Below are positions 1 through 64,000 of a stretch of DNA of 64,000 nt, one piece after another. Made by a program: the position numbers and the translations under genes. The stretch comes from a virus (taxonomy: Duplodnaviria > Heunggongvirae > Uroviricota > Caudoviricetes), in the IMG/VR virus record IMGVR_UViG_3300009095_001812, positions 120,990 through 184,989 of that record. The stretch is one strand, 5' to 3'. Every line of letters begins with the position of its first letter. The first letter of the stretch is position 1. The notes under the pieces were generated by a model, which ran no database searches, was not told where the DNA came from, and saw nothing but the letters and a program-made list of their open reading frames with translations.

Positions 1-273
1 GATGTATTTGTTCTTATCACTGATGAACAACAGAATGCAGGTACGCGACTCATGACTGCTTGGAAAGAGTACCGTTCTAAGGTCAATAAGAATGCTCAGT
101 TGTGGGTTGTTAACGCAACAAACTACCAGTGGCACTCTGCTGATTTTGGAGATTCATCAATCACTGTGTACCAGACCATGACTCCAGCACTATTCAAGAA
201 CCTTGAATATGTTGGTCAGAATCTAACGCAGGCAATTCGCAAGTTCTCGCTCTCTGATTTTGCGAAGAAGTAA
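1..273 (+). CDS. C-terminal fragment of a gene that starts upstream of the window; function unknown (possibly a vWA-like C-terminal domain)
   Basis: Open frame running from the window edge to a stop at 271-273. The tracked ORF at 52..273 is only the internal-Met version. Confidence 0.4.
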   Translation, partial: DVFVLITDEQQNAGTRLMTAWKEYRSKVNKNAQLWVVNATNYQWHSADFGDSSITVYQTMTPALFKNLEYVGQNLTQAIRKFSLSDFAKK

Positions 274-920: not shown

Positions 921-1138
921 TCACCTGCTCCCTGGGTACTCTACAATCCCAAAATATGCACAACGGAAACATTTAGCAGTCGAGAGCAGCTAATTTTTTT
1001 ATATTATATATAAGTAACGCGAATGAAGTTCATTCATCTTTATTTTAAAATAAAACCATTTCCGGCGTGAGCCGGGCTTGGACTTCAAAATTTCGTTACT
1101 GCTCTATTTGATGTGAATCTCGCGTAGAGCGCCAGAGG

Positions 1139-1194
1139 TCAACGCGCCAAAGATCATTCATCGGTAATTATGAGGTCTTTAATTATTTCGTTTG
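1139..1194 (+). ncRNA. Empty/minimal copy of the leader-trailer RNA element (no tRNA halves inside)
   Basis: Outer stem TCAACG (1139-1144) pairs with CGTTTG (1189-1194). Conserved CGCGCC follows, then the inner stem AAAGATC (1149-1155) pairs with GGTCTTT (1174-1180). The loop starts with the conserved ATTCATC. The same 12-mer AGATCATTCATC occurs at 53203-53220 and 62894-62912 on the minus strand. A trailer-like TTTCGTTACT sits just upstream at 1091-1100. Confidence 0.3.
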
Positions 1195-1214
1195 CTTCCA
1201 TTTCTTAACTGTAG

Positions 1215-4328: not shown

Positions 4329-4348
4329 ATTGATATATAGAAAGTAAC

Positions 4349-4424
4349 CGGGGTGTAGCTCAGTCTGGATTAGAGCGTTCGGTTTGGGTCCGAAAGGCCG
4401 GGGGTTCGAATCCCTCTACCCCGA
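4349..4424 (+). tRNA. tRNA-Pro (anticodon UGG)
   Basis: Cloverleaf found manually. Acceptor is CGGGGTG / TACCCCG with a C1-G72 pair typical of bacterial tRNA-Pro. D-arm GCTC..GAGC, anticodon loop TTTGGGT, T-arm GGGGG-TTCGAAT-CCCTC. Confidence 0.85.
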
Positions 4425-4828: not shown

Positions 4829-5495
4829 ATGGAATCTGTTGTTATCGAAATACGTGCCGCTGAAGGTGGTGCGGATTCAAAGTTGTTATGTGAAGATATG
4901 CTCGTAGCGTACACGAAAGCGGGAGACCGGGAGCGTCTTTGACTCGGAACTCCTAGAGTCTCAGCCTGGCTTGATAGTTATCTTATTCAAAGGAAGAGGA
5001 GCCAAAGCACTTTTCAAAAACGAAGCTGGAGGTCACCGCTGGCAGCGAATACCTCCAACTGAAAAACGTGGTCGTGTCCAAACATCTACCGTTACTGTTG
5101 CTGTTTTAGATCCAGAACCATCTACAAAATTTGTTCTCGATGAGAAGGATGTTGAAATAAAGACAAGTCGAGGATCGGGTCCTGGTGGTCAACATAGAAA
5201 CAAGACAGATTCATGTGTAACGGTTACACACAAACCAACCAAGACATCCGTTCGCATTGACATGCGAAGTCAACATCAGAGCCGTGAAATGGCTCTGAAA
5301 GTTCTTGCGGCCAAATTGGCAGATGAGTCAACCAATTTGGATCGAAAGGACAGAGAGCGACTTCGCAAGTCTCAGGTGGGATCTGGCATGCGCGGAAATA
5401 AAATCCGCACCTACAGATTCCAAGATGATCAAGTAACTGATCATCGAACGGGAAAGTGTTGGAAACTTAAAAAATGGATACGAGGCGAGTGGTAA
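4829..5495 (+). CDS. prfB: Class I peptide chain release factor homolog (RF2-like, N-terminally truncated) with a programmed +1 frameshift
   Basis: Frame 0 (4829..4939) encodes MESVVIEIRAAEGGADSKLLCEDMLVAYTKAGDRERL, matching the EIRAGAGGDEA region of release factors. It stops at TGA 4940-4942 inside the classic RF2 shift site CTT TGA C, with an SD-like GGGAG 3 nt upstream. The +1 frame (4941..5495) continues with GGHRWQRIPPTEKRGRVQTS, SGPGGQHRNKTDS and the conserved C-terminal RSQVGSGMRGNKIRTY..VTDHR. An AAGGAG RBS sits 7 nt before the ATG. Joined product is about 221 aa. Confidence 0.8.
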
Positions 5496-7349: not shown

Positions 7350-7892
7350 ATGAAAAGATCTGCTGCAATCGCATCAGCCCGTATAGGAACTAAAGAATCT
7401 AGGTTCAATACCATTGTTGAGATACTTGATCTCAAACATAAAGGTGATTGGCGCATTTGGGAAGATGCAGAATCAAACATCTTGAAGATATCCAAAAACG
7501 GAGCTGTACAGGTTTATCCATCAAAAATCTCTATTACAACAAGAGATATCTTCAAGAAGGCAGAGCCAAAGCTCATTGCCAAGCACTCATATTGGGTGCT
7601 GTGTTTGTTTGGGACAACACAGAAAATACTTGTGTTTCTTGGTAATGATGGAATTCTTAGATGTTGCCTGTTTGATAACAATCAGTGGATAGAAAATTTA
7701 AGTTCTGTTCTTTTGGGGTTCAAAACATTAAAAGTTATAGCTTCTGGATATATAGACTCAGAACCAAGAAGGATGCCACAAATGAATATTACGTATCCTA
7801 AGAGTTTCGAGATCGAGGAGGCTTGGGCTTCTGGATATCCATCTAATGATTCACAGTTACAGGAGAAAATACAGTGTCTGGGGATAAGTTAA
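7350..7892 (+). CDS. Hypothetical protein
   Basis: 180-aa ORF. Confidence 0.5.
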   Translation: MKRSAAIASARIGTKESRFNTIVEILDLKHKGDWRIWEDAESNILKISKNGAVQVYPSKISITTRDIFKKAEPKLIAKHSYWVLCLFGTTQKILVFLGNDGILRCCLFDNNQWIENLSSVLLGFKTLKVIASGYIDSEPRRMPQMNITYPKSFEIEEAWASGYPSNDSQLQEKIQCLGIS

Positions 7893-8101
7893 AATTTGGA
7901 GGGATTATTTTAGGGGCTTTGGGAAATGGTTTTTTCTCAGTTGGCATTGATCTCGAAAACGGTTCTGAGCCGAAGCGTACTATTTGTCAGCTGTCAGGTA
8001 AAATGAGAATCAAGACCATCAAAGTTGTCGAGGGTGATAAAGTTGATGTAGAGCTTGATCCATATGACATGAATAAGGGCAGAATTGTTCGCCGCAATTA
8101 A
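7874..8101 (+). CDS. infA: Translation initiation factor IF-1 homolog (S1-like OB fold)
   Basis: 75 aa. The C-terminal SGKMRIKTIKVVEGDKVDVELDPYDMNKGRIVRR aligns closely with E. coli IF1 ([34 protein letters not shown]). Confidence 0.85.
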   Translation: MSGDKLKFGGIILGALGNGFFSVGIDLENGSEPKRTICQLSGKMRIKTIKVVEGDKVDVELDPYDMNKGRIVRRN

Positions 8102-8642
8102 AGGTATCTATCAACCTACGAATGATGCGAAAAGGAAAGAAATGAATAAACCAAGTGATCACAACCCAAAGGGACTTTTAAAATTCATTAAGGGTGATGC
8201 AACTCTTCCTCAAGGAAGCTCTCTCCGATATGTTCTTCAGATTGTAAATGATGAAGGTAAGTATGGAGCTGGTTTTTCTGGCGCTCTATCAAGACGCTGG
8301 CCAAAAGTAGAGTCCGAGTATAAACAATGGTGGCGCGAAAAATATGGTCAATTGAAACTAGGTGATATTCAAATCATCCAAGTCCTTAGCGATCTTGTTG
8401 TCGTCAATATGGTAGCTCAAAAAGGTGTTGTCTCTAAAGAAAATCCAACACCTATCAAGTACGATGCTTTGAAAGCTTGTCTTTCAAAAGCTGGTGTTGA
8501 GATTTCAAAATACAATGCTTCCGTTCATATACCTCGCATTGGTTGTGGGCTCGCTTGTGGTAAGTGGGAAGAGGTTGAGCCACTGATCGAACAAGAACTG
8601 CTCAAGCGAGGTATCAATGTCACGGTGTATGATAAAGAATAG
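8085..8642 (+). CDS. Macro domain protein (ADP-ribose / O-acetyl-ADP-ribose processing)
   Basis: 185 aa. IVNDEGKYGAGFSGALSRRW matches the macro-domain glycine-rich motif (NAAN..GGGVagAI). Confidence 0.65.
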   Translation: MFAAIKGIYQPTNDAKRKEMNKPSDHNPKGLLKFIKGDATLPQGSSLRYVLQIVNDEGKYGAGFSGALSRRWPKVESEYKQWWREKYGQLKLGDIQIIQVLSDLVVVNMVAQKGVVSKENPTPIKYDALKACLSKAGVEISKYNASVHIPRIGCGLACGKWEEVEPLIEQELLKRGINVTVYDKE

Positions 8643-15469: not shown

Positions 15470-15783
15470 AATTCTTTTTCCTCATTCTGGTATTGAGCCT
15501 TTACAGCTTTACCATATATGATTTTGGTCCAACCATTTTCAAATCCGTGATTGTTTGCAATCATGTATTTTCCATCGGAGTCTATCTTTGTAATTTTGTG
15601 AGCGTCGATATATCGACCCTTTACCTTACAGAAAACGATATCTCCAATTTCATATTTTTCTTGTTTGATAAAAGTAAGCAATGAACCAGATTTGAGAATT
15701 GGAACCATTGAGGATCCAAAACATTTCATTTGCCCAGAGCCGGTTGCTGCTAACTTTATCTTCAAAGCTTCATATTTGCTCAT
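15466..15783 (-). CDS. Hypothetical protein
   Basis: 105-aa ORF. Confidence 0.5.
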   Translation of the reverse strand: MSKYEALKIKLAATGSGQMKCFGSSMVPILKSGSLLTFIKQEKYEIGDIVFCKVKGRYIDAHKITKIDSDGKYMIANNHGFENGWTKIIYGKAVKAQYQNEEKEL

Positions 15784-16307
15784 TACGCAGTTAGACCTAA
15801 AAGCTCTCTCCCTTTATCATGAGAACCTTGTGTAAGCGCCATTGCATCAGGTCCAGCAAGCTTTCTGAACGTTGCTTCGTGAACAAGCTCATCCTTTAGA
15901 ATGCGCTGAAAAATTTTACGAATATCCTCAGGAGCCTCATCATCATCTGCAATGACTTTTATACGCTCAAGGCGCATTGCCTCTGCGTGGGCTCCAACAG
16001 CAGCACCGGTTTCAAAGGAGTCAATGTAAGGAAGAGTTTGTTTCCAATATTTCTCCTCTGCGTTATCAATATCTGGAGTTATGTCCCGAGCAATCAATAA
16101 GTCCAGAACCCAGATAGCATGCATCTGTTCTTGATTAGCAATCACCATCAAATTACGAATTACATTCGTATCATTTGAGTACTGATGAGCAAACCTAGTG
16201 ATTCTATTGGCGGCTGTAATCTCACCCCTGTATTGCTTGACAAGCCAATCTGTTAGAAGAGCTGGGTCTTTCTTTACTTCAGTCCACCATTCTTGTGATG
16301 TCTTCAT
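15783..16307 (-). CDS. Ferritin-like diiron-carboxylate protein (two ExxH motifs)
   Basis: 174 aa. NQEQMHAIW and KDELVHEATF give two ExxH motifs spaced as in ferritin-like or MiaE-like four-helix bundles. Confidence 0.45.
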   Translation of the reverse strand: MKTSQEWWTEVKKDPALLTDWLVKQYRGEITAANRITRFAHQYSNDTNVIRNLMVIANQEQMHAIWVLDLLIARDITPDIDNAEEKYWKQTLPYIDSFETGAAVGAHAEAMRLERIKVIADDDEAPEDIRKIFQRILKDELVHEATFRKLAGPDAMALTQGSHDKGRELLGLTA

Positions 16308-21701: not shown

Positions 21702-22607
21702 TTATCCCATTAATTGGATGCTAGAATATTCAGTGTTGCTCAAATCAAAATCGACTACGTTTTTCTTCAAGTGATCAATGTAGTACTGAACATCTTCACC
21801 TCCTGATATTTCATGAGATGTAATCTTGCTTTCTAGTTTCTTTCGAATATCACCGATCTTTGGACCAAAAGGAACGTTGAATTCTTTTGCGATGACATTA
21901 CCCAATCCCTTAGGTAGTGTGTTTTGCTTTGAATCAATCTCTTGAATCTTGAGAACTCTTTCTCTCAACTCTTCAATAGAATCAAGAATTTTTTGTTTCT
22001 TTGCTTGATTTGCTGTTGTGATATCAGCACTTGATAATGTAAGAATATCATCAAGATGATTTCCTATATCTTTACCAAAACGACGCACAGCGGAGTCTGT
22101 CCACTCAGATGAGTAGCTTTCAACATATCCCAAATTTCTTACAAGGAAATAGATCCTATCTCTTTGTCTTTGAGAGAAGATTCTAGAACGCTTTGCAAAG
22201 GCGCTAAAGATTTGAGCTGAGATTTTCTCATGGTTGTGGAATGTTACTTTTTTGTTCTTGATTGAGAATGCACGAGCCTTTCCAAGATCATGAAACAGAG
22301 CTGCCCATCTCAGGATTGTTACTGGTGGTGTTTGACTTACAACACGAATTGTGTGCGGCCAAATTTCCTTGAACCGTTTTGATGATTTCAGCTCCAAAGA
22401 TTCTCTGATTTCCGGAATGAGATATTCAAAGAATCCAGCTCTCTGAAGCGCAACAAGGGCAATGCCAACGTGAGGGCCTCTTACAATTTCGTGAAGAACC
22501 ATCAACTGATTTCCTAATGCCCGTACATCTTCGTTTGTGATGGGTTTAATTTTACCATCACAAATTCCAGTAATTGCAAGCTGTTGAGCTTGTTTTAGCA
22601 GTTCCAT
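21702..22607 (-). CDS. HD-domain phosphohydrolase (resembles the HD module of bacterial CCA-adding enzymes / 2',3'-cyclic phosphodiesterase)
   Basis: 301 aa. H...HDLGK motif at WAALFHDLGKA, plus downstream conserved His/Asp residues. Confidence 0.65.
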   Translation of the reverse strand: MELLKQAQQLAITGICDGKIKPITNEDVRALGNQLMVLHEIVRGPHVGIALVALQRAGFFEYLIPEIRESLELKSSKRFKEIWPHTIRVVSQTPPVTILRWAALFHDLGKARAFSIKNKKVTFHNHEKISAQIFSAFAKRSRIFSQRQRDRIYFLVRNLGYVESYSSEWTDSAVRRFGKDIGNHLDDILTLSSADITTANQAKKQKILDSIEELRERVLKIQEIDSKQNTLPKGLGNVIAKEFNVPFGPKIGDIRKKLESKITSHEISGGEDVQYYIDHLKKNVVDFDLSNTEYSSIQLMG

Positions 22608-31139: not shown

Positions 31140-32858
31140 TTACTTAGAAAGTATTCCAGAAACAGTGTCAACTACTCCATCTACCTTTGACTTAATAGCC
31201 GGGTCGAGATTCTCTGCAAATGAATTGATCAATTCAGCCGTCTTTTGACCAGACATCAAAGAATTAAGCATTGCATTTGCAGATTCCGGAGTGCCATAAA
31301 GAGTCATAGTAATCTTCTGACCAATCTCTGCCATTGCCTTCGCAGACTCGATACGAATAGTCCTGTCCGCCTCAACCTTCAGCTTGGCAATCTCGAACTC
31401 CTGAGCAACCTTACCAGATTTCTCACGAGCTTCGAGTTCAGGCTTCACAACATTTTCAATACGATCCTGATCGATCTTGACCCTTTCACGCTCAACCTCC
31501 ACAGGAACAAGAGCGAGAGCGCGGTCACCTTCAGCTTTGGCTTTTAGGGCAACAGCTTCGGCAGTTGCTTTCTTGGTTACCGCCTCTGCATCAGCGTCGG
31601 CAGCGAGCTTGCGGGCTTCTGCATCCTTTTGAACGCTATATGCCTTGGCATCTGCTTTACGCTGCTCTGAAACAAACGCTTGCTCTGCTTGTGCTTGCGC
31701 TGCAATCACAGCACGTTTCTTCTCGCGCTCTGCTTCTGCCTCAACCTCAACGGTCTTGACGGACTGCATCTCACGTTCACGAAGAGCTTGTGCTGTAGCG
31801 AGTTCTGCTTCTTTTGCGGCTTTCAGCTTAGCAGCCTCTGCAACAGCTTGAGTCCTTGCTTCGTTTGCAACTTCTGTTGCCTGTTTCTTCTCGATAGCTG
31901 CAACTTCAAGATTTCGTTGCTTCTCGACTTCAGCAAGTTCCACAGCACGAGCAGCTGCAATTGCTTTCTCTTTTGCAATTTGATCTTGCTCAGCTCTAAC
32001 CTTTGCAATCTCTGCCGCTTGTGTTGCTTCGGCTGCTTGCTGATCTTGCTCATGAGCGAGAACAGCTTTTCTGGTTTCAACATCTTGTTGTTTTCGAGCC
32101 TGTTCACCAGCACGTTCCAGCTTGTTTCTTTCAGTCTTGTTACGCTCAGTGATCTCTGCAATGGTTCTCTTACCCTGTGCGTCGAAGATGTTATCATCAC
32201 TTAATGAGGAAACAGAAGTCTGATCCAATTTAGAGATGGTTACAGATTCAAGAGACAGACCGTTTTCGGCAAGGTCATTATTCACAGCTTTGGTAACTTC
32301 TTCTACGAAGTTTTCACGATCTGAATGAAGTTCTTGTAGAGATTTAGTTGCAGCAACTGAACGAAGAGCAGAGATAAGTTTGTCTTCAACTGCGGCTTTT
32401 ACCAAGTTGACATTCATCATCTTATCACCAAGAGAACGTGCTGCTTGAAGTATACTTTCCTGAGATGGTGATACTTTAACAAAGAACTCTGCACCAATAT
32501 CAGCACGCAGATTATCTTTGGTAATAAGAGCGTCTTTGTGTTCACGCAGAACTTCGAGTTTCAAAGTCTCTAATGAGATTTTAATGAACTCATGTAGTAC
32601 AGGAATTACAAGTGCGCCACCATCTTGGATTATTCTCACTCCACCCATACCAGTACGAACGAAAGCTTCATTTGCTTTTGCCCTCTGATAGAGTTTTGTG
32701 ATGACTGCGATGATTCCGATGACGAGCATCAAGAACACACCAGCGCCCATCAAAATGGCTTGTGACAAAAAGCTTACTTGAACTCCCATTGCACTCATAG
32801 CAATCGGGGTCACTAGTAAACCCAGTGCCAATATGAAAAGTAAAACAAGACCGATCAT
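31140..32858 (-). CDS. SPFH/band-7 (flotillin/stomatin-like) membrane protein
   Basis: 572 aa. N-terminal transmembrane helices, an SPFH core, then a long Ala/Glu/Lys-rich coiled-coil tail typical of flotillin-like proteins. Confidence 0.75.
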   Translation of the reverse strand: MIGLVLLFILALGLLVTPIAMSAMGVQVSFLSQAILMGAGVFLMLVIGIIAVITKLYQRAKANEAFVRTGMGGVRIIQDGGALVIPVLHEFIKISLETLKLEVLREHKDALITKDNLRADIGAEFFVKVSPSQESILQAARSLGDKMMNVNLVKAAVEDKLISALRSVAATKSLQELHSDRENFVEEVTKAVNNDLAENGLSLESVTISKLDQTSVSSLSDDNIFDAQGKRTIAEITERNKTERNKLERAGEQARKQQDVETRKAVLAHEQDQQAAEATQAAEIAKVRAEQDQIAKEKAIAAARAVELAEVEKQRNLEVAAIEKKQATEVANEARTQAVAEAAKLKAAKEAELATAQALREREMQSVKTVEVEAEAEREKKRAVIAAQAQAEQAFVSEQRKADAKAYSVQKDAEARKLAADADAEAVTKKATAEAVALKAKAEGDRALALVPVEVERERVKIDQDRIENVVKPELEAREKSGKVAQEFEIAKLKVEADRTIRIESAKAMAEIGQKITMTLYGTPESANAMLNSLMSGQKTAELINSFAENLDPAIKSKVDGVVDTVSGILSK

Positions 32859-33464
32859 TTACCGCAACTCCTCTTTTGGTTTATCGACATAAAAAACGCC
32901 ATCTTTGTATTCGGTTATCAGTACGCCATCTGATATAGCGAACCTTCCGCTATATGTTCTGGCATTTAGTTTGTGAAGACTTCCATAGTTATCAAGGACG
33001 TGAATTTGTCCGAAAGTCTCAGATACAGAAATTACTACTTTGCCTCGTTTACCAACGAAGTGTTCGGGTGTGATGTTGTACGTTTCTGTTTGTGGCATGA
33101 AAGCAGAAACTGCTAACGCAATAAAGCGTGTACTAACTGATGTTATTAATAATGCACCAAGAACAGAAAACACTCTAAGTAGAGGCGGAAAGAAGATGTT
33201 GAGAAACAACCCTGAGGCACCAAATAAAAGGAATGCTGTAAACAGTACGATACTCAAGGGACATCGACCAACGCCAAATAGACTCAAGAACTTGATAAAG
33301 AAACTTTCATGTCCTTCAAATTCAATTTCCGGGTTATCAGCGATATCCGCATCTATATCTGTTCCGGCTCCAATACCAGAAATAGAAGAGAGAATGAACA
33401 CTATCCCTAGCATAATTGATACATAGAAGATCAAAATATGCCACTGTAATATATTTTCTAACAT
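32859..33464 (-). CDS. NfeD-like membrane protein (partner of SPFH proteins)
   Basis: 201 aa. Multi-pass transmembrane N-terminus plus a C-terminal OB-fold-like beta domain. Abuts the SPFH gene as in canonical operons. Confidence 0.65.
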   Translation of the reverse strand: MLENILQWHILIFYVSIMLGIVFILSSISGIGAGTDIDADIADNPEIEFEGHESFFIKFLSLFGVGRCPLSIVLFTAFLLFGASGLFLNIFFPPLLRVFSVLGALLITSVSTRFIALAVSAFMPQTETYNITPEHFVGKRGKVVISVSETFGQIHVLDNYGSLHKLNARTYSGRFAISDGVLITEYKDGVFYVDKPKEELR

Positions 33465-46146: not shown

Positions 46147-46863
46147 CTATTCCTCGACTTGCTCTAAAAGCACGTCGATATACTCCCGGTTTTCTTGAAA
46201 CCGTGGAATCTCAAGATCGGTTGATCCATTTACCAATACACACCAACCTCTTTTATTGATTGTAGGTATTTGTTCCCAATCTATACTTTTCTCATCAAGA
46301 AGCATCTTCTTCATTTCCTTGCAAGACTTACCCTGCAACATTCTGTGAGAAAAATGAGCCTGTGCCAATGAAGAAACAGAATTTCGTTCAGCGTCTTGTT
46401 GTCTCCAAACAAAATAGTTACACGCCTCTTCTCTTGGTATTACAAAAGCTCTGGAATCAAACATTGCCAATTTAGAAATGACAATCTTTTCATCCATCAT
46501 ATATTTGTTGAAATATGCCGTGGCGATGGATGCAGACACAGATACAATCTTTTGTAACTCTTTTCCAAACCACGCCTGAGTTTCAAAGTTCTCGTAATCA
46601 TTTACTAAAATGGATATTTCATCAGATTGGATGTACGCAAGTTTTGCACCCTGGATGTTTTCCATTAGTCCTTTGGCAGCTTGAGTCATTGCACTTTGAA
46701 TACTCTGATCAAAGGGCCTGGTAAAACCCTTTGTATATGAGTGAAATGCTTTACCATCGCAGCGAATTATCATAGGCATGCGTGGGGTTAGGGCAATTTT
46801 AGAGACGTTCTCATAACTTTTCATTCGGTTGCCTAAAGATGATTTCTCCATTTTACCTCTCAA
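46147..46863 (-). CDS. Thg1-like protein (tRNA-His guanylyltransferase family; 3'-5' polymerase / tRNA 5'-end repair)
   Basis: 238 aa. IRCDGKAFHSYTKGF..PFDQ and YIQSDEISILV align with Thg1 motifs (RxDGRxFH..., QSDEYSF). Downstream YFVWRQQDAERNS resembles the Thg1 WRQ(A/Q)D motif. Confidence 0.75.
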   Translation of the reverse strand: MRGKMEKSSLGNRMKSYENVSKIALTPRMPMIIRCDGKAFHSYTKGFTRPFDQSIQSAMTQAAKGLMENIQGAKLAYIQSDEISILVNDYENFETQAWFGKELQKIVSVSASIATAYFNKYMMDEKIVISKLAMFDSRAFVIPREEACNYFVWRQQDAERNSVSSLAQAHFSHRMLQGKSCKEMKKMLLDEKSIDWEQIPTINKRGWCVLVNGSTDLEIPRFQENREYIDVLLEQVEE

Positions 46864-53054: not shown

Positions 53055-53228
53055 TAGTGACGAAAAAAAGCGAGACCATTTTTTATCGGCGTCCTAGTCC
53101 CCTAGACGAAACTCGCGAGTTGAGAAGATAAAGATCTCAAAATGGGAATTTTAAGTTCCCGGTGCGAGCTGGGAGATTCGAACTCCCGTTTCCGGCTTGA
53201 TGCGATGAATGATCTCTGTCGCGTCACT
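53055..53228 (-). ncRNA. Permuted/split tRNA-like cassette 1: tRNA 3' half upstream of its matching 5' half, enclosed by a conserved leader/trailer
   Basis: Read 5' to 3' on the minus strand. Leader outer-stem strand AGTGACG (revcomp of 53222-53228). Motif CGCGAC-AGAGATCATTCATC. Then GCATCAAGCCGG-AAAC, T-arm GGGAG-TTCGAAT-CTCCC (53171-53187), acceptor 3' strand AGCTCGC (53164-53170), discriminator A, CC. Next is the hairpin GGGAA-CTTAAAA-TTCCC (53144-53160) and a 27-nt spacer. Then the acceptor 5' strand GCGAGTT (53110-53116, 7 bp complementary to AGCTCGC with one G-U), TC, D-arm GTCT-AGGGGACTA-GGAC, G, CCGAT-AAAAAAT. Trailer: GGTCTCGC-TTTTTTT-CGTCACTA (53055-53077). Leader GAGATC pairs with trailer GGTCTC, and leader GTGACG pairs with trailer CGTCAC. 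Confidence 0.5.
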
Positions 53229-53231
53229 TAG

Positions 53232-53305
53232 TTGCGGGAGAAGGATTTGAACCTTCGGTCTCCAGGTTATGAGCCTAGCGGGCTACCAGACTGCCCTATC
53301 CCGCG
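53232..53305 (-). tRNA. tRNA-Met (anticodon CAU), initiator-like (C1-A72 mismatch)
   Basis: Acceptor CGCGGGA / TCCCGCA with unpaired C1 and A72, a hallmark of bacterial initiator tRNA. D-arm GGGC-AGTCTGGTA-GCCC, anticodon arm CTAGG-CTCATAA-CCTGG, T-arm GAAGG-TTCAAAT-CCTTC. Confidence 0.75.
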
Positions 53306-53634: not shown

Positions 53635-53748
53635 GCAACGAAAATGTGTCGACAAATTGCAGAACCAACACTGCGTCCAAAGCTTACGCCCTGGATAGGA
53701 ATCGAACCTATGAATCTAATAAAGATGAAATGTCAACTTGCGCGTTGC
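53635..53748 (-). ncRNA. Degenerate copy of the leader/trailer tRNA-like cassette (T-arm and acceptor-like module only)
   Basis: Leader outer GCAACG (revcomp of 53743-53748), CGCAAG, inner stem strand GTTGAC, conserved ATTTCATC. T-arm ATAGG-TTCGATT-CCTAT plus CCAGGGC-G. Trailer inner stem GTCGAC (53648-53653), ACATTTT, outer CGTTGC (53635-53640). No complementary 5' acceptor strand or D-arm found. Confidence 0.35.
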
Positions 53749-56131: not shown

Positions 56132-56732
56132 TCACTCATCGAGTGTCTCTGTGTATGCATCACTTAAGTCCGAACCGATGTTTTTTAATCGATCCCAAGT
56201 GAATGGCCTTGGGTTTTCACGCAATAATGATGCTCCAACCGAATCCAGCGCGATGTCGACTGGGAGGAGCGCTGTTTTGACGCTTGCACTGCCTAGTTTT
56301 TTGATTGCTCTGAAAATACTCATATTCTAAAATATCCTTTGCCTTCTCTTTCGATTCTATCTTTTTCTGTGAGTCTAATTAGTTGTTGATCAACTTCTGT
56401 CATAACTGAACTAAGACGTGCAGAAAAACCAATTGAAGATCTTGGAGCATCATGATACTGGTCTGATACGATTGAAATCAGATCAATTTGTTGACGCGAG
56501 CAGAACTGTTCAAACTTTATATCTTTCATTAGGTACTCGATAAACTGAAAGTATCAGGAATGAAATGAAGTGTCCAGCTTGATTCTAAAACCCAAAACAT
56601 TACAGATTTGTTATCCGAATCCATAAAATCAGGAAGTTGTTTTAGATGGTTTTGACACAATGAAAATATGAGCATTGGACTAATACTATCACACGGCGGT
56701 ACGTATGTCAAGCCATTTTTTATAGTGTTCAT
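56132..56732 (-). CDS. Three consecutive small hypothetical ORFs (56132..56323, 56320..56529, 56529..56732)
   Basis: 63, 69 and 67 aa, same strand, with start/stop overlaps. They sit upstream of the rfb operon. Confidence 0.35.
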
Positions 56733-57507
56733 TAGGTCCTAAAATTTCATCAGTTTTAGATGTGTCCAGAACGCTATAACTAGGGCGCAAGGCCTGCCTT
56801 GGAAATTCATTTGTAGAACAAGGCTTGATATTACAGGAAGATCCTACCTTGTGAGAAATGTCTTTTGCAAACTCAAACCACGAACAACTACCTCCATCTG
56901 TAATATGAAAAGTTCCAGTTTGTTTCAGATCGATTAGCTTCAAAGTTCGCTGGGCCAAACCAATTACATGAGTAGGGCGGCCGAACTGATCATTAACTAC
57001 ACTAATTTCATCTTGGGTATTCAAAAGGCGTAACATTGTTTGTAAAAAATTATTACCCCAAGGAGCGTAAACCCAACTTGTCCGAATCAAAAGATAATTA
57101 GCACCAGATGATTGAAGTAATTCCTCACCACGAAGTTTGGAACGCCCATAAGCATTAATGGGACTTCTTTTATCGTCAGTTTTATAAGGTGTCTCTGAAG
57201 ATCCGTCGAAAACATAATCTGTACTAAAATGTACAAACTTTGCACCAACAATAGCGCACTGTTCTGCAAGACTTCCAACTGCATCGCCATTAACGCGAGA
57301 GGCTATATCCTCTTCCTTTTCGGCATCATCAACTTTTGTATATCCTGCGCAGTTGATTACACAATCACCAACATCAATTGGTAATTTTAAATTTTCAAAC
57401 TTACACAAATCAGCTTGGGCTCGATCTAAAAATATAGATTCTTTTGGTAAGAGCTTTGTAAAAGCTTTTCCTAATTGACCACTGGATCCTAGAATAATAA
57501 ATTTCAA
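56689..57507 (-). CDS. rfbD: dTDP-4-dehydrorhamnose reductase
   Basis: 272 aa. N-terminal GxxGxxG Rossmann motif (ILGSSGQLG). Position and size fit RmlD as the last step of the operon. Confidence 0.75.
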   Translation of the reverse strand: MKFIILGSSGQLGKAFTKLLPKESIFLDRAQADLCKFENLKLPIDVGDCVINCAGYTKVDDAEKEEDIASRVNGDAVGSLAEQCAIVGAKFVHFSTDYVFDGSSETPYKTDDKRSPINAYGRSKLRGEELLQSSGANYLLIRTSWVYAPWGNNFLQTMLRLLNTQDEISVVNDQFGRPTHVIGLAQRTLKLIDLKQTGTFHITDGGSCSWFEFAKDISHKVGSSCNIKPCSTNEFPRQALRPSYSVLDTSKTDEILGPNEHYKKWLDIRTAV

Positions 57508-58052
57508 AATATTTCCTTATAAACAGGAAGATTTTTGATATCTTTCAAAAAAGGAGCTTCACTATCTTTTGAAGAAAGTAATGGATTTTCTATAGGCCAT
57601 GGAATATTTAAATCAGGGTCTCTAAATGATATACTCATTTCACAAGATTTTTCATATACATTAGTACATTTATATAAAACATGAGCACTATCACTAAGAA
57701 CACAAAACCCATGAGCAAATCCGGGCGGTACGTAAAATTGATATTTGTTTTGAGAGTTTAGTTCCGTAGCGCAATATCTACCAAATGTTGGAGATCCTAT
57801 TCGAACATCAACTGCAACATCCCAAATACATCCCGTAATAGCCATGACCAATTTTCCCTGATCATTTGGATGTTGTAAATGTAAACCACGTAAAGTTCCA
57901 TTGTATGAATATGAAAGATTATCTTGAACAAATTTTATTTCTTGAGGAAACGATCTTATAGAAAATGTTTCCGTAAAAAATCCACGATAATCAAAAATAA
58001 CACGAGGTTTAATAAGTAAAACCTCAGGTATTTCTTGTTGAACAATTTCCAT
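57504..58052 (-). CDS. rfbC: dTDP-4-dehydrorhamnose 3,5-epimerase
   Basis: 182 aa cupin. RGLHLQ and the His/Lys/Tyr catalytic pattern match RmlC. Confidence 0.75.
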   Translation of the reverse strand: MEIVQQEIPEVLLIKPRVIFDYRGFFTETFSIRSFPQEIKFVQDNLSYSYNGTLRGLHLQHPNDQGKLVMAITGCIWDVAVDVRIGSPTFGRYCATELNSQNKYQFYVPPGFAHGFCVLSDSAHVLYKCTNVYEKSCEMSISFRDPDLNIPWPIENPLLSSKDSEAPFLKDIKNLPVYKEIF

Positions 58053-58925
58053 TTATATTTCCTTTTTTAACAAAGAATTTAAATATTTTGCATAATCTGT
58101 TTTTCCTAAAGAACTTATACTCTTTCGCAGATCGGGTTCGGTTATCCATTTCGAATTGAAAGCAATTTCTTCTGGGCAAGCAATTTGCAAACCCTGCTTT
58201 TCCTGTACCGTTTGTACAAACTGAGATGCTTGTAACATTGCTTCTGGAGAACCTGTATCAAGCCAAGCAATACCCCTACCAAGTTTTACACATAACAAAG
58301 AACCATTGTTGAGATACATTCTGTTCAAATCTGTTATTTCCAATTCACCTCGGGAAGATGGCTGTAGTGTTTTAGCAAATTCAGAAACCCGATGGTCATA
58401 AAAATAAAGACCAGTAACCGCATAATTACTTTTGGGTTGCTTTGGTTTTTCTTCAAGTGATATGACTTGACCCAACTGATCAAATTCAGCAACTCCATAT
58501 ATTTCAGGAGTTGCTGTGTGATATCCAAATATTTTAGCGCCGTGAGTTAGCTTGGCCGCATTCTGTAACTCACCTTGTAAACCATGACCAAAGAAAATGT
58601 TATCACCAAGAACAAGTGAGCACGGTTCGTTATTGATAAATTTTTCACCAATGATAAATGCTTGAGCTATACCATTTGGAGATTGCTGAACTTCCTGTTG
58701 AATATTCAAACCCCACTGAGAACCATCGCCAAGAGTTTTAGAAAAAGACTCTTTATCTTCGGGTGTTGTTATAACAAGTACATCTCTAATTCCGGCAAGC
58801 ATTAGTACGCTAAGCGGATAATAAATCATAGGTTTATCATAAACAGGAATTAGTTGTTTACTAACACCTCTAGTAATTGGAAATAATCTAGATCCTGTAC
58901 CACCAGCTAATATAATTCCCTTCAT
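58053..58925 (-). CDS. rfbA: Glucose-1-phosphate thymidylyltransferase
   Basis: 290 aa. N-terminal [16 protein letters not shown] is the classic G-x-G-T-R-L nucleotidyltransferase signature. RmlA-like throughout. Confidence 0.85.
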
Positions 58926-59977
58926 TCAATACCACGCTTAGTATAGTTTTCTTCAATCCAAAATTGGTATTTGCCAGATGTAACTGAATTTACCCAATCT
59001 TGATTATCTATATACCAATCTACTGTTTTTTGTAGACCAGATTCTATTGTTTCTTGCGGGGACCAACCACACTCTTTTCTTATCTTGGTTGAGTCAATCG
59101 CATATCTTAGATCATGCCCTGGACGATCTTTTACATAAGTAATTAAAGATAAAATATCATCTTCAGACTCTCCTAGTTTTTTAGAAAGCAAAGTGCATAA
59201 AGCTTTAATAAGATTTATATTTGAACATTCATTATTACCACCTACATTGTAAGTTTCTCCAACTCTACCATTTTCATGTACAGCCCAGATAGCAGAACAA
59301 TGATCTTCAACATATAACCAATCACGTACGTTTTCACCTTTACCATAAACAGGTATTGGTTTTCTTTGTAGTACATTACTAATTACCAAAGGTATTAGTT
59401 TTTCTGGAAACTGATATGGTCCATAGTTATTTGAGCAATTAGTTATATTAACAGGAAGTCCGTATGTTTTATGATACGCTCGAACTAAATGATCACTAGA
59501 CGCTTTAGAAGCTGAATAGGGACTAGAAGGATCATATGGTGTTTTTTCTGTAAACAAACCATTCTGATCTAAAGACCCATATACTTCATCAGTACTTACG
59601 TGATGAAAGATAATTGATTTTTGTTTTCTGGATTCTTCGAGTAAATTGAATGTTCCAATTATATTGGCTTGTATGAAAGCTCCAGGTCCAAGAATACTAC
59701 GATCAACATGACTTTCTGCGGCAAAATGAAAAACAACGTCAGGTTGTACTCTTGCAAATAATGATTGAACTTCAATAGGATTTGAGATATCAACACGCGA
59801 GAATTCGTAATTTCCAAGCTTAGAAATATTTTCTAGATTTTGTAAATTAGCTGCGTATGTCAAATTATCTGCATTTACAAAATGCACTTCTTTCATTATT
59901 GGTACTGATTTTAGTAAAAAATTAGAACCAATAAATCCAGCCCCACCTGTCACTAAAATTTTCTTATCAAAATCCAT
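58922..59977 (-). CDS. rfbB: dTDP-glucose 4,6-dehydratase
   Basis: Start reassigned to [18 protein letters not shown] (ATG 59975-59977). The tracked ORF's extra N-terminus is the translated tRNA-Val. YxxxK and TGGAGFIGS are SDR motifs of RmlB. Confidence 0.85.
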
Positions 59978-60051
59978 GGTGCAAGATAGAGGATTCGAAC
60001 CTCTGACCACTTCCTAGTCAAAGAAGCACTCTACCGCTGAGTTAATCTTGC
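59977..60051 (-). tRNA. tRNA-Val (anticodon GAC), 3' CCA encoded
   Basis: Perfect acceptor GCAAGAT / ATCTTGC, D-arm ACTC-AGCGGTA-GAGT, anticodon arm CTTCT-TTGACTA-GGAAG, T-arm AGAGG-TTCGAAT-CCTCT, discriminator A then CCA. The CCA overlaps the rfbB start codon. Confidence 0.8.
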
Positions 60052-62603: not shown

Positions 62604-62614
62604 AAATTCTTAGC

Positions 62615-62682
62615 AGTTCTGGAGGGATTCGAACCCTACACGTTCGAAGCGTGCTGCACTAATCCGCCGTGCTACAGAACCA
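62615..62682 (-). tRNA. Noncanonical 68-nt tRNA-like gene (anticodon UCG, Arg-like) lacking a variable region; possible pseudogene
   Basis: Acceptor GGTTCTG / CAGAACT (G1-U72). D-arm GCAC-GGCGGATTA-GTGC, anticodon arm GCACG-CTTCGAA-CGTGT, then directly AGGG-TTCGAAT-CCCT. No nucleotides are left for positions 44-48. Confidence 0.4.
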
Positions 62683-62763: not shown

Positions 62764-62767
62764 AAAT

Positions 62768-62921
62768 AGTAACGAAAAAAGTTGAGACCTCACGCTCCTC
62801 TGCTCTGCCAACTGAGCTACCTTCCCATGAACTGAACCCTAAGGTCCCGGTGGGAAGAGTTAGATTCGAACTAACGACACAAGGTTTTCAATTGATGAAT
62901 GATCTCTAGGCGCGTTACTAA
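62768..62921 (-). ncRNA. Permuted/split tRNA-like cassette 2: tRNA 3' half upstream of its matching 5' half, enclosed by a conserved leader/trailer
   Basis: Read 5' to 3' on the minus strand. Leader outer TAGTAACG (revcomp of 62914-62921). Motif CGCC-TAGAGATCATTCATC, then AATTGAAA-ACCTT-GTGTC. T-arm GTTAG-TTCGAAT-CTAAC (62860-62876), acceptor 3' strand TCTTCCC (62853-62859), discriminator A, CC. Linker GGGACCTTAGGGTTCAGTTCAT. Acceptor 5' strand GGGAAGG (62821-62827, pairs with TCTTCCC), TA, D-arm GCTC-AGTTGGCA-GAGC, A, GAGGA, GCGTGA. Trailer: GGTCTC-AAC-TTTTTT-CGTTACTA (62768-62790). Leader GAGATC pairs with trailer GGTCTC, and TAGTAACG pairs with CGTTACTA. Confidence 0.5.
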
Positions 62922-63920: not shown

Positions 63921-63998
63921 TCCTAAAATAGTACAACGAAAATTGCGCAGACCCTTTGCTCTACCGCTGAGCTATTCGGCCATAAATGCGGCCGAAAT
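63921..63998 (-). ncRNA. Permuted/split tRNA-like cassette 3, truncated by the window edge (5' half and trailer visible)
   Basis: Acceptor 3' strand TTCGGCC (revcomp of 63988-63994), discriminator G, 7-nt linker CATTTAT. Acceptor 5' strand GGCCGAA (63973-63979), TA, D-arm GCTC-AGCGGTA-GAGC, A, AAGGG. Trailer: TCTGCGCAA-TTTT-CGTTGTACTA-TTTTAG (63921-63949). The T-arm and leader should lie beyond position 63998. Confidence 0.4.
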
Positions 63999-64000
63999 AA

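What the first reader, a model, noticed from the sequence alone, without database searches (positions are those of the whole stretch)
53055..53228. Permuted tRNA-like cassette 1 with an anticodon-like hairpin in the linker
Cassette 1 has the same architecture as cassette 2. It shares the conserved 3' tail after the acceptor, ACC-GGGAACTTA against ACC-GGGACCTTA in cassette 2. Its linker contains a perfect 5-bp/7-nt hairpin GGGAA-CUUAAAA-UUCCC. That loop is the same 7 nt as the anticodon loop of the two tRNA-Leu(UAA) genes in this window. The 5' half carries a tRNA-Glu-like D-arm (TC-GTCT...GGAC) and a 7-nt A-rich stretch, AAAAAAT, just before the trailer inner stem. The cassette sits directly downstream of the initiator-like tRNA-Met.
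Basis: seen in the sequence. Interest (0 to 1): 0.75.

Follow-up and report, generated by a model that had tools for sequence, protein, structure and literature searches.

The report
Phage Y RNA with tRNA-like head
The "permuted tRNA" is real, but it is best read as one of at least 13 small Y-type RNAs of a giant phage, most likely partners of the phage's own Ro60 protein, in which a conserved double-helix handle carries a tRNA look-alike; the RNA class has been known since 2014, but this large and divergent phage family has not been described.

Summary
The order is T arm, 7-bp acceptor stem closed by a linker, then D arm. The RNA's two ends pair into two 7-bp helices.

It is not a tRNA gene. 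The same end-to-end handle recurs at least 13 times in this 446-kb phage contig and in relatives. The handle is an outer helix ending ACG/CGU, a 5' bulge CG(C/A).., an inner helix (G)AGAUC/GGUCU, UUCAUC, and a U-rich 3' bulge. Its cargo ranges from full tRNA mimics to a plain loop.

A Ro60/Rsr gene ends at window position 273, and two family members lie 0.7-0.9 kb downstream on its strand. In related Ro60 loci all 24 handle copies are downstream on the Ro60 strand.

Both handle helices, the acceptor stem and the linker hairpin covary strongly. This is the architecture of YrlA-type Y RNAs. The linker hairpin is a conserved structure, but its anticodon-like loop is not conserved.

Verdict: a new, expanded variant of a known kind. 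Ro60 binding is inferred, not shown.

The parts
53056..53228 (-). Cassette 1 (c1), the whole predicted RNA: handle plus permuted tRNA-like module
   Evidence: Sequence; MFE fold gives outer and inner helices, T arm, closed acceptor stem and D arm; found by the family scan.
53222..53228 (-). Outer helix, 5' strand AGUGACG (pairs with 53056-53062 CGUCACU)
   Evidence: Covaries across 23 family members: AGUAACG/CGUUACU, ACAAACG/CGUUUGU, GACAGCG/CGCUGUC and others. Six of 8 pairs change on both sides.
53217..53221 (-). 5' bulge CGACA. The CG that follows the ACG is invariant in 40/40 members. Candidate protein-recognition site; counterpart of the CGAA bulge of known Y RNAs.
   Evidence: Mycobacteriophage Myrna YrlA has GCCGAACGCGAC at the same place.
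53210..53216 (-). Inner helix, 5' strand GAGAUCA (pairs with 53072-53078 UGGUCUC)
   Evidence: All 7 pairs change on both sides in the family, e.g. GUUGACA/UGUCGAC in c3 and UUCAGC/GCUGAA in L092.
53204..53209 (-). Invariant UUCAUC at the junction of handle and cargo
   Evidence: Invariant in alignment A3. The family scans required T[TC]CATC, so its constancy across the 40 members is by construction. In c4 it supplies the last stem pairs plus a 4-nt variable loop ending in C48.
53171..53187 (-). T arm GGGAG-UUCGAAU-CUCCC, preceded by C at the position of tRNA residue 48
   Evidence: T stem covaries.
53164..53170 (-). Acceptor-like stem, 3' strand AGCUCGC (pairs with 53110-53116 GCGAGUU)
   Evidence: 100% paired in 13 members; all 7 pairs change on both sides.
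53161..53163 (-). ACC directly after the acceptor stem (discriminator A plus CC)
   Evidence: ACC also in c2, in L177 1050-900 and in Myrna YrlA. ACG, ACU and GCU in three other L177 members, so only semi-conserved.
53144..53160 (-). Linker hairpin GGGAA-CUUAAAA-UUCCC
   Evidence: A 5-bp hairpin at this position is present in 6 members with all 5 pairs covarying; the loop is not conserved.
53117..53143 (-). Rest of the linker, with a second predicted hairpin (UGAGAU...CUCAAC). Other members have only a 7-8 nt spacer here.
53091..53109 (-). U8-C9 plus D arm GUCU-AGGGGACUA-GGAC (tRNA-Glu-like; A14, G15, GG, A21 present)
   Evidence: D stem covaries.
53079..53090 (-). G26, CCGAU and AAAAAA: ill-defined anticodon-stem equivalent that runs into the inner helix. 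CGAU can pair with AUCG at 53203-53206.
   Evidence: Read from the sequence. The MFE fold uses a different short pairing here, so this part is uncertain.
53063..53071 (-). 3' bulge GCUUUUUUU. A U-run directly before the outer helix is a family feature.
53231..53305 (-). tRNA-Met (C1-A72 mismatch, initiator-like) 3-4 nt upstream. Its 3' processing would create the 5' end of c1.
   Evidence: tRNA-Met is also directly followed by a handle element in L088 and L092.
62767..62920 (-). Cassette 2 (c2), paralog, followed after 7 nt by tRNA-Arg(ACG)
   Evidence: syntenic ortholog in L177.
53635..53748 (-). Cassette 3 (c3): same handle, T arm, acceptor stem CCAGGGC-GUAA-GCUUUGG closed by a tetraloop, D arm. 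It ends 3 nt before tRNA-Glu.
   Evidence: z = -3.5.
63928..64000 (-). 3' part of cassette 4 (c4), cut by the window end. The whole element is L083 9697-9806, a clean permuted cloverleaf.
   Evidence: z = -4.4.
1013..1100 (+). Family member eA: same handle, cargo of two plain hairpins, no tRNA features. It lies 0.74 kb downstream of Ro60 on the same strand.
   Evidence: z = -4.0.
1137..1196 (+). Family member eB: minimal, weak outer helix, followed by a strong hairpin at about 1217-1250
   Evidence: (fold not better than shuffles).
1..273 (+). 3' end of the Ro60/Rsr gene (529 aa; the rest lies before the window start)
   Evidence: Pfam vWA_Ro60; E 2.5e-14; aligns to D. radiodurans Rsr 2nvo over residues 31-487, E 4e-13; NCBIfam Rsr, E 1e-17, far below that model's curated cutoff; phage 'Ro-like RNA binding proteins'.

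Best explanation
Cassette 1 is a Y RNA of the YrlA type. It is a small non-coding RNA whose 5' and 3' ends pair into a stem-bulge-stem handle, and the handle is the docking site for the phage's own Ro60 protein. Its upper part folds like a tRNA whose acceptor stem is closed by a linker and whose anticodon stem is replaced by the handle.

Likely life cycle:
- It is transcribed with the neighbouring tRNAs (inferred).
- Its 5' end is made when tRNA-Met is cut out 3-4 nt upstream (inferred).
- The handle binds the Ro60 ring (inferred from synteny and from analogy with known Y RNAs).
- The tRNA-like head recruits a tRNA-recognising partner (inferred).

The best partner candidates are encoded beside Ro60: a conserved RNase-T-like 3'-5' exonuclease and a CCA-adding enzyme. 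Host PNPase is another candidate, as in known Ro60-Y RNA-PNPase complexes. The complex would then work in RNA or tRNA surveillance, trimming or repair during infection.

Cassette 1 has a full 7-bp acceptor stem, an encoded ACC and a long structured linker. It may therefore also be opened by RNase P and 3'-trimmed, as was shown for Mycobacterium smegmatis YrlA (analogy only).

The phage carries at least 13 such RNAs with different heads, most of them embedded among its tRNA genes.
For: 1. Architecture. The order is terminal helices, variable region, T arm, closed 7-bp acceptor stem, D arm. [quoted passage not shown] The RNA I located upstream of the Ro gene of mycobacteriophage Myrna folds the same way. 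It has ACC after a 7-bp acceptor stem and AACGCGAC in its 5' strand.

2. A shared handle with interchangeable cargo. There are 13 complete elements in contig positions 13.7-86.5 kb and 40 distinct ones overall.

3. Handle covariation. 92% of cells are paired against 70% in shuffles and 34-50% when slid; 13 of 15 pairs change on both sides.

4. tRNA-like module covariation. 99% paired. Acceptor 7/7, linker hairpin 5/5, T stem 4/5 and D stem 3/4 pairs change on both sides. The pair between positions 15 and 48 also switches: G15-C48 in most members, A15-U48 in c5 (read).

5. ARAGORN of 8 computationally un-permuted constructs a tRNA and 0 of 8 in genomic order.

6. Ro60 linkage:
- The Ro60 gene ends at window position 273. 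eA and eB lie 0.7-0.9 kb downstream on the same strand.
- Of 5 IMG/VR relatives, 4 have 2-3 elements 1-3.5 kb downstream on the same strand.
- In JGI metagenomes, all 24 hits near Ro60 of this clade are downstream on the Ro60 strand, in 10 of about 13 loci with enough sequence. Among 59 loci of distant Ro60 genes there was 1 hit.
- In L088 and L116 a permuted tRNA-like member is among the Ro60-adjacent ones.

7. G-U pairs are common in the helices and all copies follow the local direction of the genes. Both point to function as RNA on this strand.

8. Conserved neighbours. The RNase_T-like exonuclease lies just upstream of Ro60 in 11 of 11 relatives, and the CCA-adding enzyme is nearby in 4.
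Against: - No experiment: expression, RNA ends and Ro60 binding are all unshown.
- Cassette 1 itself lies about 52.8 kb from Ro60, on the other DNA strand (though with its local genes). Chen et al. found YrlA within 4 kb of Ro60.
- The published Ro-binding motif GNCGAAN0-1G is present in only 1 of 40 members; the family has ACGCG(C/A) instead.
- The Ro60 protein is divergent. Pfam TROVE was not detected, only the vWA_Ro60 domain.
- One close relative (L090) shows no element next to Ro60.
- Alignments A3 and A4 were registered by hand. The 3' partner of the inner helix was picked by best match and the outer 3' partner was required to pair over at least 6 positions, which inflates the percentage paired.
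- Most sequences are paralogs from a few genomes, so cells are not independent events.
Confidence: 0.77

Rival explanations
1. A true circularly permuted tRNA gene. Leader and trailer would be cut and ligated to create an anticodon loop, and the linker would then be removed by RNase P and RNase Z to give a working tRNA, as in Cyanidioschyzon merolae or Thermofilum pendens.
For: The 3' half precedes the 5' half. There is a perfect 7-bp acceptor stem, ACC after it, and canonical T and D arms. ARAGORN accepts the un-permuted construct when given a synthetic anticodon arm. The phage encodes many tRNA-related enzymes: Thg1-like, CCA-adding and MiaE-like.
Against: - Leader and trailer form two 7-bp helices around an asymmetric 5/9-nt bulge, not a bulge-helix-bulge motif.
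- No 7-nt anticodon loop can be assembled.
- In c4 the 'anticodon stem' simply continues into the handle.
- The identical handle flanks cargos without any tRNA part.
- Acceptor stems are closed by a GNRA tetraloop in c3 and in L088.
- No splicing endonuclease or RtcB ligase appears among the annotated genes of the 84 kb seen.
Confidence: 0.04
2. The handle is a structured RNA element unrelated to Ro60. It could be a processing or stabilising module of the tRNA-island transcripts (an RNase III/E site or protective end-structure), or the binding site of another protein of the conserved module such as the RNase-T-like exonuclease.
For: Most copies in this phage sit among tRNAs, 3-7 nt from a tRNA end and far from Ro60. 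The classical CGAA motif is missing. The exonuclease gene is as tightly linked to the locus as Ro60.
Against: The strict same-strand, downstream association with one Ro60 clade, with near-absence next to distant Ro60 genes. The stem-bulge-stem handle plus tRNA-like head is the published Y RNA plan. No terminator-like site was called at c1.
Confidence: 0.12
3. A decoy for host tRNA-targeting defences. The tRNA-like body and the tRNA-Leu(UAA)-like hairpin would soak up an anticodon nuclease or another tRNA-binding defence protein, independently of Ro60.
For: The linker hairpin is 14/17 identical to the anticodon arm of the phage's tRNA-Leu(UAA), including all 7 loop bases. The element lies in a large phage tRNA island. 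From general knowledge of the field, such islands are thought to counter tRNA-cleaving defences.
Against: The anticodon-like loop is not conserved in any other member, including the closest paralog and the L177 elements. This reading does not explain the conserved handle or its Ro60 linkage.
Confidence: 0.04
4. Non-functional debris: remnants of tandem tRNA genes or a DNA-level repeat (MITE-like, with short inverted ends).
For: The short inverted ends (AGTGACG...CGTCACT) and the multi-copy dispersal superficially resemble a mobile DNA repeat. YrlA itself is proposed to derive from dimeric tRNA transcripts.
Against: Compensatory changes occur in six helices. G-U pairs work only on the transcribed strand. 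Orientation always follows the genes. The family is conserved across phages whose Ro60 proteins are only 55-79% identical.
Confidence: 0.03

Closest known systems
YrlA-type bacterial and phage Y RNAs (Salmonella Typhimurium, Mycobacterium smegmatis, mycobacteriophages; Chen et al. 2014, PMC4201824; structure in bioRxiv 10.1101/312249)
   Same: - The ends pair into a protein-binding stem.
- The order is variable region, T arm, closed acceptor-like stem-loop, D arm, with tRNA tertiary nucleotides including a covarying 15-48 pair.
- They are encoded near Ro60 on the same strand and often next to tRNAs.
- M. smegmatis YrlA has a 7-bp acceptor stem, is cut by RNase P and receives CCA.
- Myrna's RNA has ACC after the acceptor stem and AACGCGAC in the 5' strand.
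   Different: - The exact GNCGAAN0-1G motif is absent (1 of 40 members).
- This family has its own invariant ACG|CG and UUCAUC.
- There are at least 13 copies per genome instead of 1-4.
- Most copies are up to about 73 kb from Ro60, inside the tRNA island.
[quoted passage not shown]
- A subfamily has a long linker with a conserved hairpin.
Yrl1 and Yrl2 of Thermus phage phiLo, bound by phage Ro60 (NAR 2025, PMC12135203)
   Same: Phage-encoded Ro60 with adjacent small RNAs defined by a 5'-3' stem flanking a bulge. Binding and a ternary complex with host PNPase were shown there.
   Different: Those RNAs carry the CGAA bulge motif, lie upstream of Ro60, number two, and are not described as tRNA-like.
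Circularly permuted tRNA genes (Cyanidioschyzon merolae, other algae, Thermofilum pendens)
   Same: The 3' half comes before the 5' half, the acceptor is initially closed, and the leader pairs with the trailer.
   Different: Those have a bulge-helix-bulge motif cut by the splicing endonuclease and mature into real tRNAs. Here there is no such motif, no recoverable anticodon, and the handle is shared with non-tRNA cargos.
Deinococcus radiodurans Yrn1
   Same: A Y RNA whose tRNA-like parts are in the other order relative to the ends. Family member e2 (L083 2069-2186) likewise has D-like hairpin, anticodon-like hairpin and T arm in the normal tRNA order inside the same handle.
   Different: There is no sequence relation. 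Yrn1 keeps both strands of the metazoan-like Ro-binding helix.
Two-piece (permuted) tmRNA
   Same: A permuted gene order with T arm and acceptor 3' strand before the acceptor 5' strand.
   Different: No tag reading frame or pseudoknots. ARAGORN, which searches for permuted tmRNA, reports none. A full D arm is present.

Membership tests
YrlA-type Y RNA | 5' and 3' ends pair into a stem-bulge-stem module | tested here: met
   Two helices around an asymmetric bulge. MFE folds of c1, c2 and 10 of 11 other members recover the handle. Covariation in 13 of 15 pairs.
YrlA-type Y RNA | tRNA-like module in the order T arm, closed acceptor-like stem-loop, D arm, with tRNA tertiary nucleotides | tested here: met
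   U8, A14, G15, G18-G19, A21, C48, G53, UUCGAAU and C61 were read from the sequence.
YrlA-type Y RNA | Encoded near a Ro60/Rsr gene on the same strand (family level) | tested here: met
   eA and eB lie 0.7-0.9 kb downstream of Ro60. In clade relatives 24 of 24 hits are same-strand and downstream. Seen in 4 of 5 IMG/VR relatives.
YrlA-type Y RNA | Encoded within about 4 kb of Ro60 on the same strand (this cassette itself) | tested here: not met
   c1 is about 52.8 kb from the Ro60 stop codon and on the opposite DNA strand, though co-oriented with its local genes.
YrlA-type Y RNA | GNCGAAN0-1G (CGAA) motif in the 5' strand of the Ro-binding module | tested here: not met
   Exact motif in 1 of 40 members. 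c1 has ACGCGACAG. The related string AACGCGAC is shared with Myrna YrlA. CGAA is present in eA and one L091 member only.
YrlA-type Y RNA | Physically bound by Ro60 | not testable with these tools
   Needs immunoprecipitation or gel-shift.
YrlA-type Y RNA | Match to a curated covariance model | tested here: inconclusive
   No Rfam 15 hit for any member. The known-type RNA next to Myrna Ro gives no hit either, so Rfam appears to hold no usable YrlA model.
Circularly permuted tRNA gene | 3' half upstream of 5' half, with complementary acceptor strands | tested here: met
Circularly permuted tRNA gene | Leader and trailer form a bulge-helix-bulge motif whose excision and ligation restores a normal loop | tested here: not met
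   Two 7-bp helices with a 5-nt/9-nt internal loop. No 3-nt bulges and no recoverable 7-nt anticodon loop.
Circularly permuted tRNA gene | Splicing endonuclease and ligase available | tested here: inconclusive
   None among the Pfam-annotated genes of contig positions 13.7-97 kb. The other 360 kb could not be read.
Canonical tRNA | Recognised by ARAGORN or the Rfam tRNA model | tested here: not met
   Recognised only after artificial un-permutation.
Two-piece tmRNA | Permuted acceptor/T-arm piece plus a coding piece with a tag peptide | tested here: not met
   ARAGORN reports no tmRNA. The Rfam tmRNA match is an 8-bit fragment at c3 only.

The most novel reading that the evidence does not exclude
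The phage runs a programmable Ro60 machine. One Ro60 ring, with the conserved RNase-T-like exonuclease and the CCA-adding enzyme, would be directed by a dozen interchangeable Y RNA heads, each mimicking a different tRNA or pre-tRNA. Members of the ACC-plus-hairpin type (c1, c2 and several in L177) would be opened by RNase P, trimmed back to the encoded CC and completed to CCA. That would give nicked tRNA mimics with a free acceptor end, acting as substrates, sensors or decoys in tRNA 3'-end repair or in conflict with host tRNA-cleaving defences. In c1 the extra tRNA-Leu(UAA)-like anticodon arm would add a second, anticodon-level mimic.
Probability: 0.15. Interest if true: 0.8.

Novelty: new variant of a known kind. 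Interest (0 to 1): 0.55.

Why it matters
Y RNAs with tRNA-like heads are known, but what the tRNA-like head binds and what Ro60 does for a phage are still open questions.

This family offers a natural experiment. One conserved handle carries more than a dozen different heads in a single genome: full tRNA mimics with 7-bp acceptor stems, versions with ACC and a conserved 3' hairpin, a head in the normal tRNA order, and bare loops. A conserved exonuclease and a CCA-adding enzyme sit beside Ro60.

That makes partner identification and head-swap experiments straightforward. It also shows that tRNA finders and Rfam miss a recurrent class of structured RNAs in the tRNA islands of giant phages, and that 'permuted tRNA' calls in phage genomes should first be checked against Ro60.

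Tried and rejected
- Rfam at gathering and at permissive thresholds found nothing at any element. The same was true at Myrna's YrlA-type RNA, so this says little.
- BLASTN of the region against 50,697 phage records matched only tRNAs.
- An IMG/VR scan for leader plus T loop plus ACC gave 0 hits. A scan for T loop plus ACCGGGA gave 77 loci, all coding sequence or ordinary tRNAs.
- Relatives found through a neighbouring nucleoside deoxyribosyltransferase-like protein (L079-L082) had no elements in the stretches fetched. A motif hit in L081 was GC-rich coding sequence.
- The second contig carrying this phage (Logan SRR5690606) is identical over 20.7 kb and gave no variation.
- Ro60 was not found among the larger window ORFs. 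It turned up only on stepping 10 kb beyond the window start. One look-up failed because the ORF start differed from the called gene.
- The supplement of Chen et al. and the 2020 Annual Review were not available.
- A bulge-helix-bulge reading, an anticodon rebuilt by ligation, a K-turn, known self-cleaving ribozyme cores and an intrinsic terminator were considered by eye and dropped. For the terminator, the scan also found nothing.
- My hairpin search found only one intact CUUAAAA anticodon arm. The second tRNA-Leu(UAA) was missed there because an intron splits it.
Full report
**What is at the coordinates.** Read on the minus strand, 53228-53056 contains in order:
- AGUGACG
- CGACA
- GAGAUCA
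- UUCAUC
- about 16 nt
- T arm GGGAG-UUCGAAU-CUCCC
- AGCUCGC
- ACC
- hairpin GGGAA-CUUAAAA-UUCCC
- a 27-nt spacer with a second hairpin
- GCGAGUU
- UC
- D arm GUCU-AGGGGACUA-GGAC
- G-CCGAU-AAAAAA
- UGGUCUC
- GCUUUUUUU
- CGUCACU

AGCUCGC pairs 7/7 with GCGAGUU. AGUGACG pairs with CGUCACU, and GAGAUCA pairs with UGGUCUC. The MFE fold returns exactly this plan (z = -2.7). The element begins 3-4 nt after tRNA-Met. ARAGORN and Rfam do not call it. That includes the tRNA-Glu-like D arm and the identity of the hairpin loop with the tRNA-Leu(UAA) anticodon loop. A second, intron-split tRNA-Leu(UAA) exists at about 38143-38920.

**It is one of a family.** Cassette 2 (62767-62920, minus) has the same plan. 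A simple scan for 'T arm, 7 nt, then their complement downstream' also found a third cassette at 53635-53748, whose acceptor stem is closed by a GUAA tetraloop. It found a fourth cut by the window end.

All share the leader ..ACG|CG(C/A)..(G)AGAUC(A)-UUCAUC and the trailer GGUCU..-U-run-CGU... Searching for that leader gave two more copies on the plus strand at 1013-1100 and 1137-1196. These have the same handle but only plain hairpins or a loop as cargo.

The source contig is a 446-kb ENA metagenome contig. The 10 kb beyond the window end holds six further complete copies and one trailer. So the phage has at least 13 copies, all oriented with their local genes and several abutting tRNA genes by 3-7 nt. 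A descriptor scan finds no others in the window, and shuffles give 0-3.

**The clue.** Stepping 10 kb beyond the window start revealed a 529-aa Ro60/Rsr gene whose last 73 codons are window 52-273, plus strand. The protein evidence is:
- Pfam vWA_Ro60, E 2.5e-14.
- A 457-residue alignment to Deinococcus Rsr (2nvo), E 4e-13.
- NCBIfam Rsr, E 1e-17, far below that model's curated cutoff.
- 22-26% identity to annotated phage 'Ro-like RNA binding proteins'.

The two plus-strand copies lie 0.7-0.9 kb downstream of it on the same strand. This is the arrangement by which bacterial and phage Y RNAs were originally found (PMC4201824).

[quoted passage not shown] The M. smegmatis version has a 7-bp acceptor stem that is cut by RNase P and gets CCA. 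That is the anatomy of cassette 1. The RNA just upstream of the Ro gene of mycobacteriophage Myrna folds the same way. It has ACC after its acceptor stem and carries GCCGAACGCGAC where cassette 1 has GUGACGCGAC.

**Testing the Ro60 link elsewhere.** Ro60 proteins 40-84% identical to this one are common in metagenomes, often on 200-460-kb contigs.
- In IMG/VR, 4 of 5 close relatives have two or three handle elements 1-3.5 kb downstream of Ro60 on its strand.
- In JGI metagenomes all 24 handle hits near Ro60 of this clade are downstream and on the Ro60 strand, in 10 of about 13 loci with at least 1 kb of downstream sequence.
- Among 59 loci with distant Ro60 genes (24-29% identity) there was one hit, probably by chance.

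Most Ro60-adjacent copies are 59-80 nt (handle plus a loop). L088 8612-8748 and L116 1772-1910 are full permuted tRNA mimics.

An RNase_T-type exonuclease gene sits just upstream of Ro60 in 11 of 11 relatives, and a CCA-adding enzyme is nearby in four.

**Structure support.**
- Handle-only alignment (23 members, five genomes): 92% of cells pair, against 70% in shuffles and 34-50% with slid partners. Thirteen of 15 pairs change on both sides.
- tRNA-like modules (13 members including Myrna): 99% pair. Acceptor 7/7, linker hairpin 5/5, T stem 4/5 and D stem 3/4 pairs covary.
- These alignments were registered by hand. The inner-helix partner was chosen by best match and the outer 3' partner was required to pair over at least 6 positions. 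Many rows are paralogs. So the figures overstate independence, but the slid controls and the variety of pair types are clear.
- ARAGORN calls all eight un-permuted constructs a tRNA when given a synthetic anticodon arm. It calls none in genomic order and 3 of 8 with mismatched halves.

**The linker.** A pattern scan found a tRNA island of another giant phage (L177, a 169-kb IMG/VR contig) with seven family members in 9.3 kb. One is the syntenic ortholog of cassette 2, also followed by tRNA-Arg(ACG). Its acceptor stem keeps pairing through a compensatory change (GGGAAAG/CUUUCCC against GGGAAGG/UCUUCCC) and its linker again starts with a 5-bp hairpin.

Across six members the plan is: acceptor 3' strand, N73, two nucleotides (CC, CG or CU), a 5-bp hairpin, a 7-8-nt spacer, then the acceptor 5' strand. 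The hairpin is therefore a conserved feature of a subfamily. Its loop is not conserved (CUUAAAA, UUAG, GUAA, AAAA, AUCA, GAAA), and ACC is present in only 3 of 6. The anticodon-like loop of cassette 1 is thus either a lineage-specific addition (14/17 identity to the tRNA-Leu arm suggests copying) or coincidence.

**Why not a permuted tRNA gene.**
- Leader and trailer do not form a bulge-helix-bulge motif.
- No anticodon loop can be regenerated.
- In c4 the stem below the D and T arms simply runs on into the handle.
- The same handle carries non-tRNA cargos.
- Some acceptor stems end in tetraloops.
- No splicing endonuclease or RtcB ligase is among the genes annotated in the 84 kb I could read.

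**What remains inferred.** Expression, RNA ends, Ro60 binding and the partner of the tRNA-like head are all unshown. Cassette 1 itself is about 52.8 kb from Ro60. The classical CGAA/GNCGAAN0-1G motif is replaced by ACG|CG(C/A), with an exact match in 1 of 40 members. For these reasons I file it as a new variant of the YrlA kind rather than a plain member. I keep a 12% rival in which the handle serves another protein or a processing role.

**Known against new.** Phage Ro60 with adjacent Y-like RNAs is documented for mycobacteriophages, CcrColossus, phage G and Thermus phage phiLo, with binding and a PNPase complex shown for phiLo. I found no description of any of the following:
- This handle.
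- A family of a dozen or more copies spread through a tRNA island.
- The ACC-plus-hairpin linkers.
- The conserved exonuclease neighbour.

Noticed in passing
window 38143-38920 (-): A second tRNA-Leu(UAA) split by an intron of about 690 nt in the anticodon loop. The 5' exon is GGCCCCUUGGUGGAAUAGGCAGACACGGAGGACUU and the 3' exon is AAAAUCCUU...CCCGGUUCGAAUCCGGGAGGGGCCA. The intron has a sub-threshold Rfam group I intron match (26 bits, E 2e-4). ARAGORN and Rfam tRNA both miss the gene.
   Followed up: partly
window 42358-42434 (-); 4971-5495 (+); 7874-8101 (+): An amber-suppressor-type tRNA (anticodon CUA, labelled Pyl by ARAGORN), together with a short 174-aa protein carrying PCRF/RF-1 release-factor domains and an eIF-1A-like protein. 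This hints at tampering with stop-codon reading.
   Followed up: no
window 46147-46863 (-); 15783-16307 (-); 21702-22607 (-); L087 14940-16445: A dense set of tRNA-related enzymes: a Thg1-like 3'-5' nucleotidyltransferase, a MiaE-like hydroxylase, an HD-domain protein with a tRNA-nucleotidyltransferase tail, and a full CCA-adding enzyme near Ro60.
   Followed up: partly
window 31140-33464 (-): A 572-aa Band-7/SPFH protein next to a YqiJ_N-domain (weak Pfam hit) protein. The YrlA structure paper cites predicted 'band-7-associated tRNAs' that occur with RtcB and sometimes with Rsr. No such RNA was looked for here.
   Followed up: no
L083 2069-2186 (just outside the window, same contig): Family member e2 carries D-like hairpin, anticodon-like hairpin (UCUGA-GCAA-UCAGA) and T arm in the normal tRNA order inside the same handle. 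The handle therefore takes the place of the acceptor stem, the reverse of cassette 1, as reported for Deinococcus Yrn1 against YrlA.
   Followed up: partly
L083 1866-1988; L088 8756-8874; L089 8611-8725: A conserved subfamily present in three phages. It has a T arm and a GC-rich helix (UGGGCGC...GCGGCCCA) but no recognisable acceptor or D arm. It is the first or second element after Ro60 in the relatives.
   Followed up: no
window 62614-62681 (-): tRNA-Arg(UCG) found by Rfam (40 bits) but not by ARAGORN, directly after tRNA-Arg(ACG).
   Followed up: no
L079 / L080 (IMG/VR relatives), e.g. 45-130, 1901-1987, 2653-2738, 4326-4411: Several tRNAs called with 86-87 nt (Gln, Glu, Lys, Thr) beside normal-length copies of the same anticodon. 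These may carry insertions or be mis-calls.
   Followed up: no
window 980-1007 (+) and about 1217-1250: A weak sigma-70-like -35/-10 match that ends 6 nt before eA, and a strong 13-bp hairpin after eB. Together they would make eA-eB a small transcription unit of their own. The promoter match is no better than chance.
   Followed up: partly
window 56689-60010 (-): A complete dTDP-rhamnose pathway (RmlA, B, C, D) inside the tRNA-rich region.
   Followed up: no
L090 about 8440-8530: The closest IMG/VR relative of Ro60 (78% identity) shows only a trailer-like string (AAAUUUCGUUACC) and no recognisable leader downstream of Ro60. The element may be degenerate or divergent. L177, rich in elements, comes from the same metagenome.
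   Followed up: no
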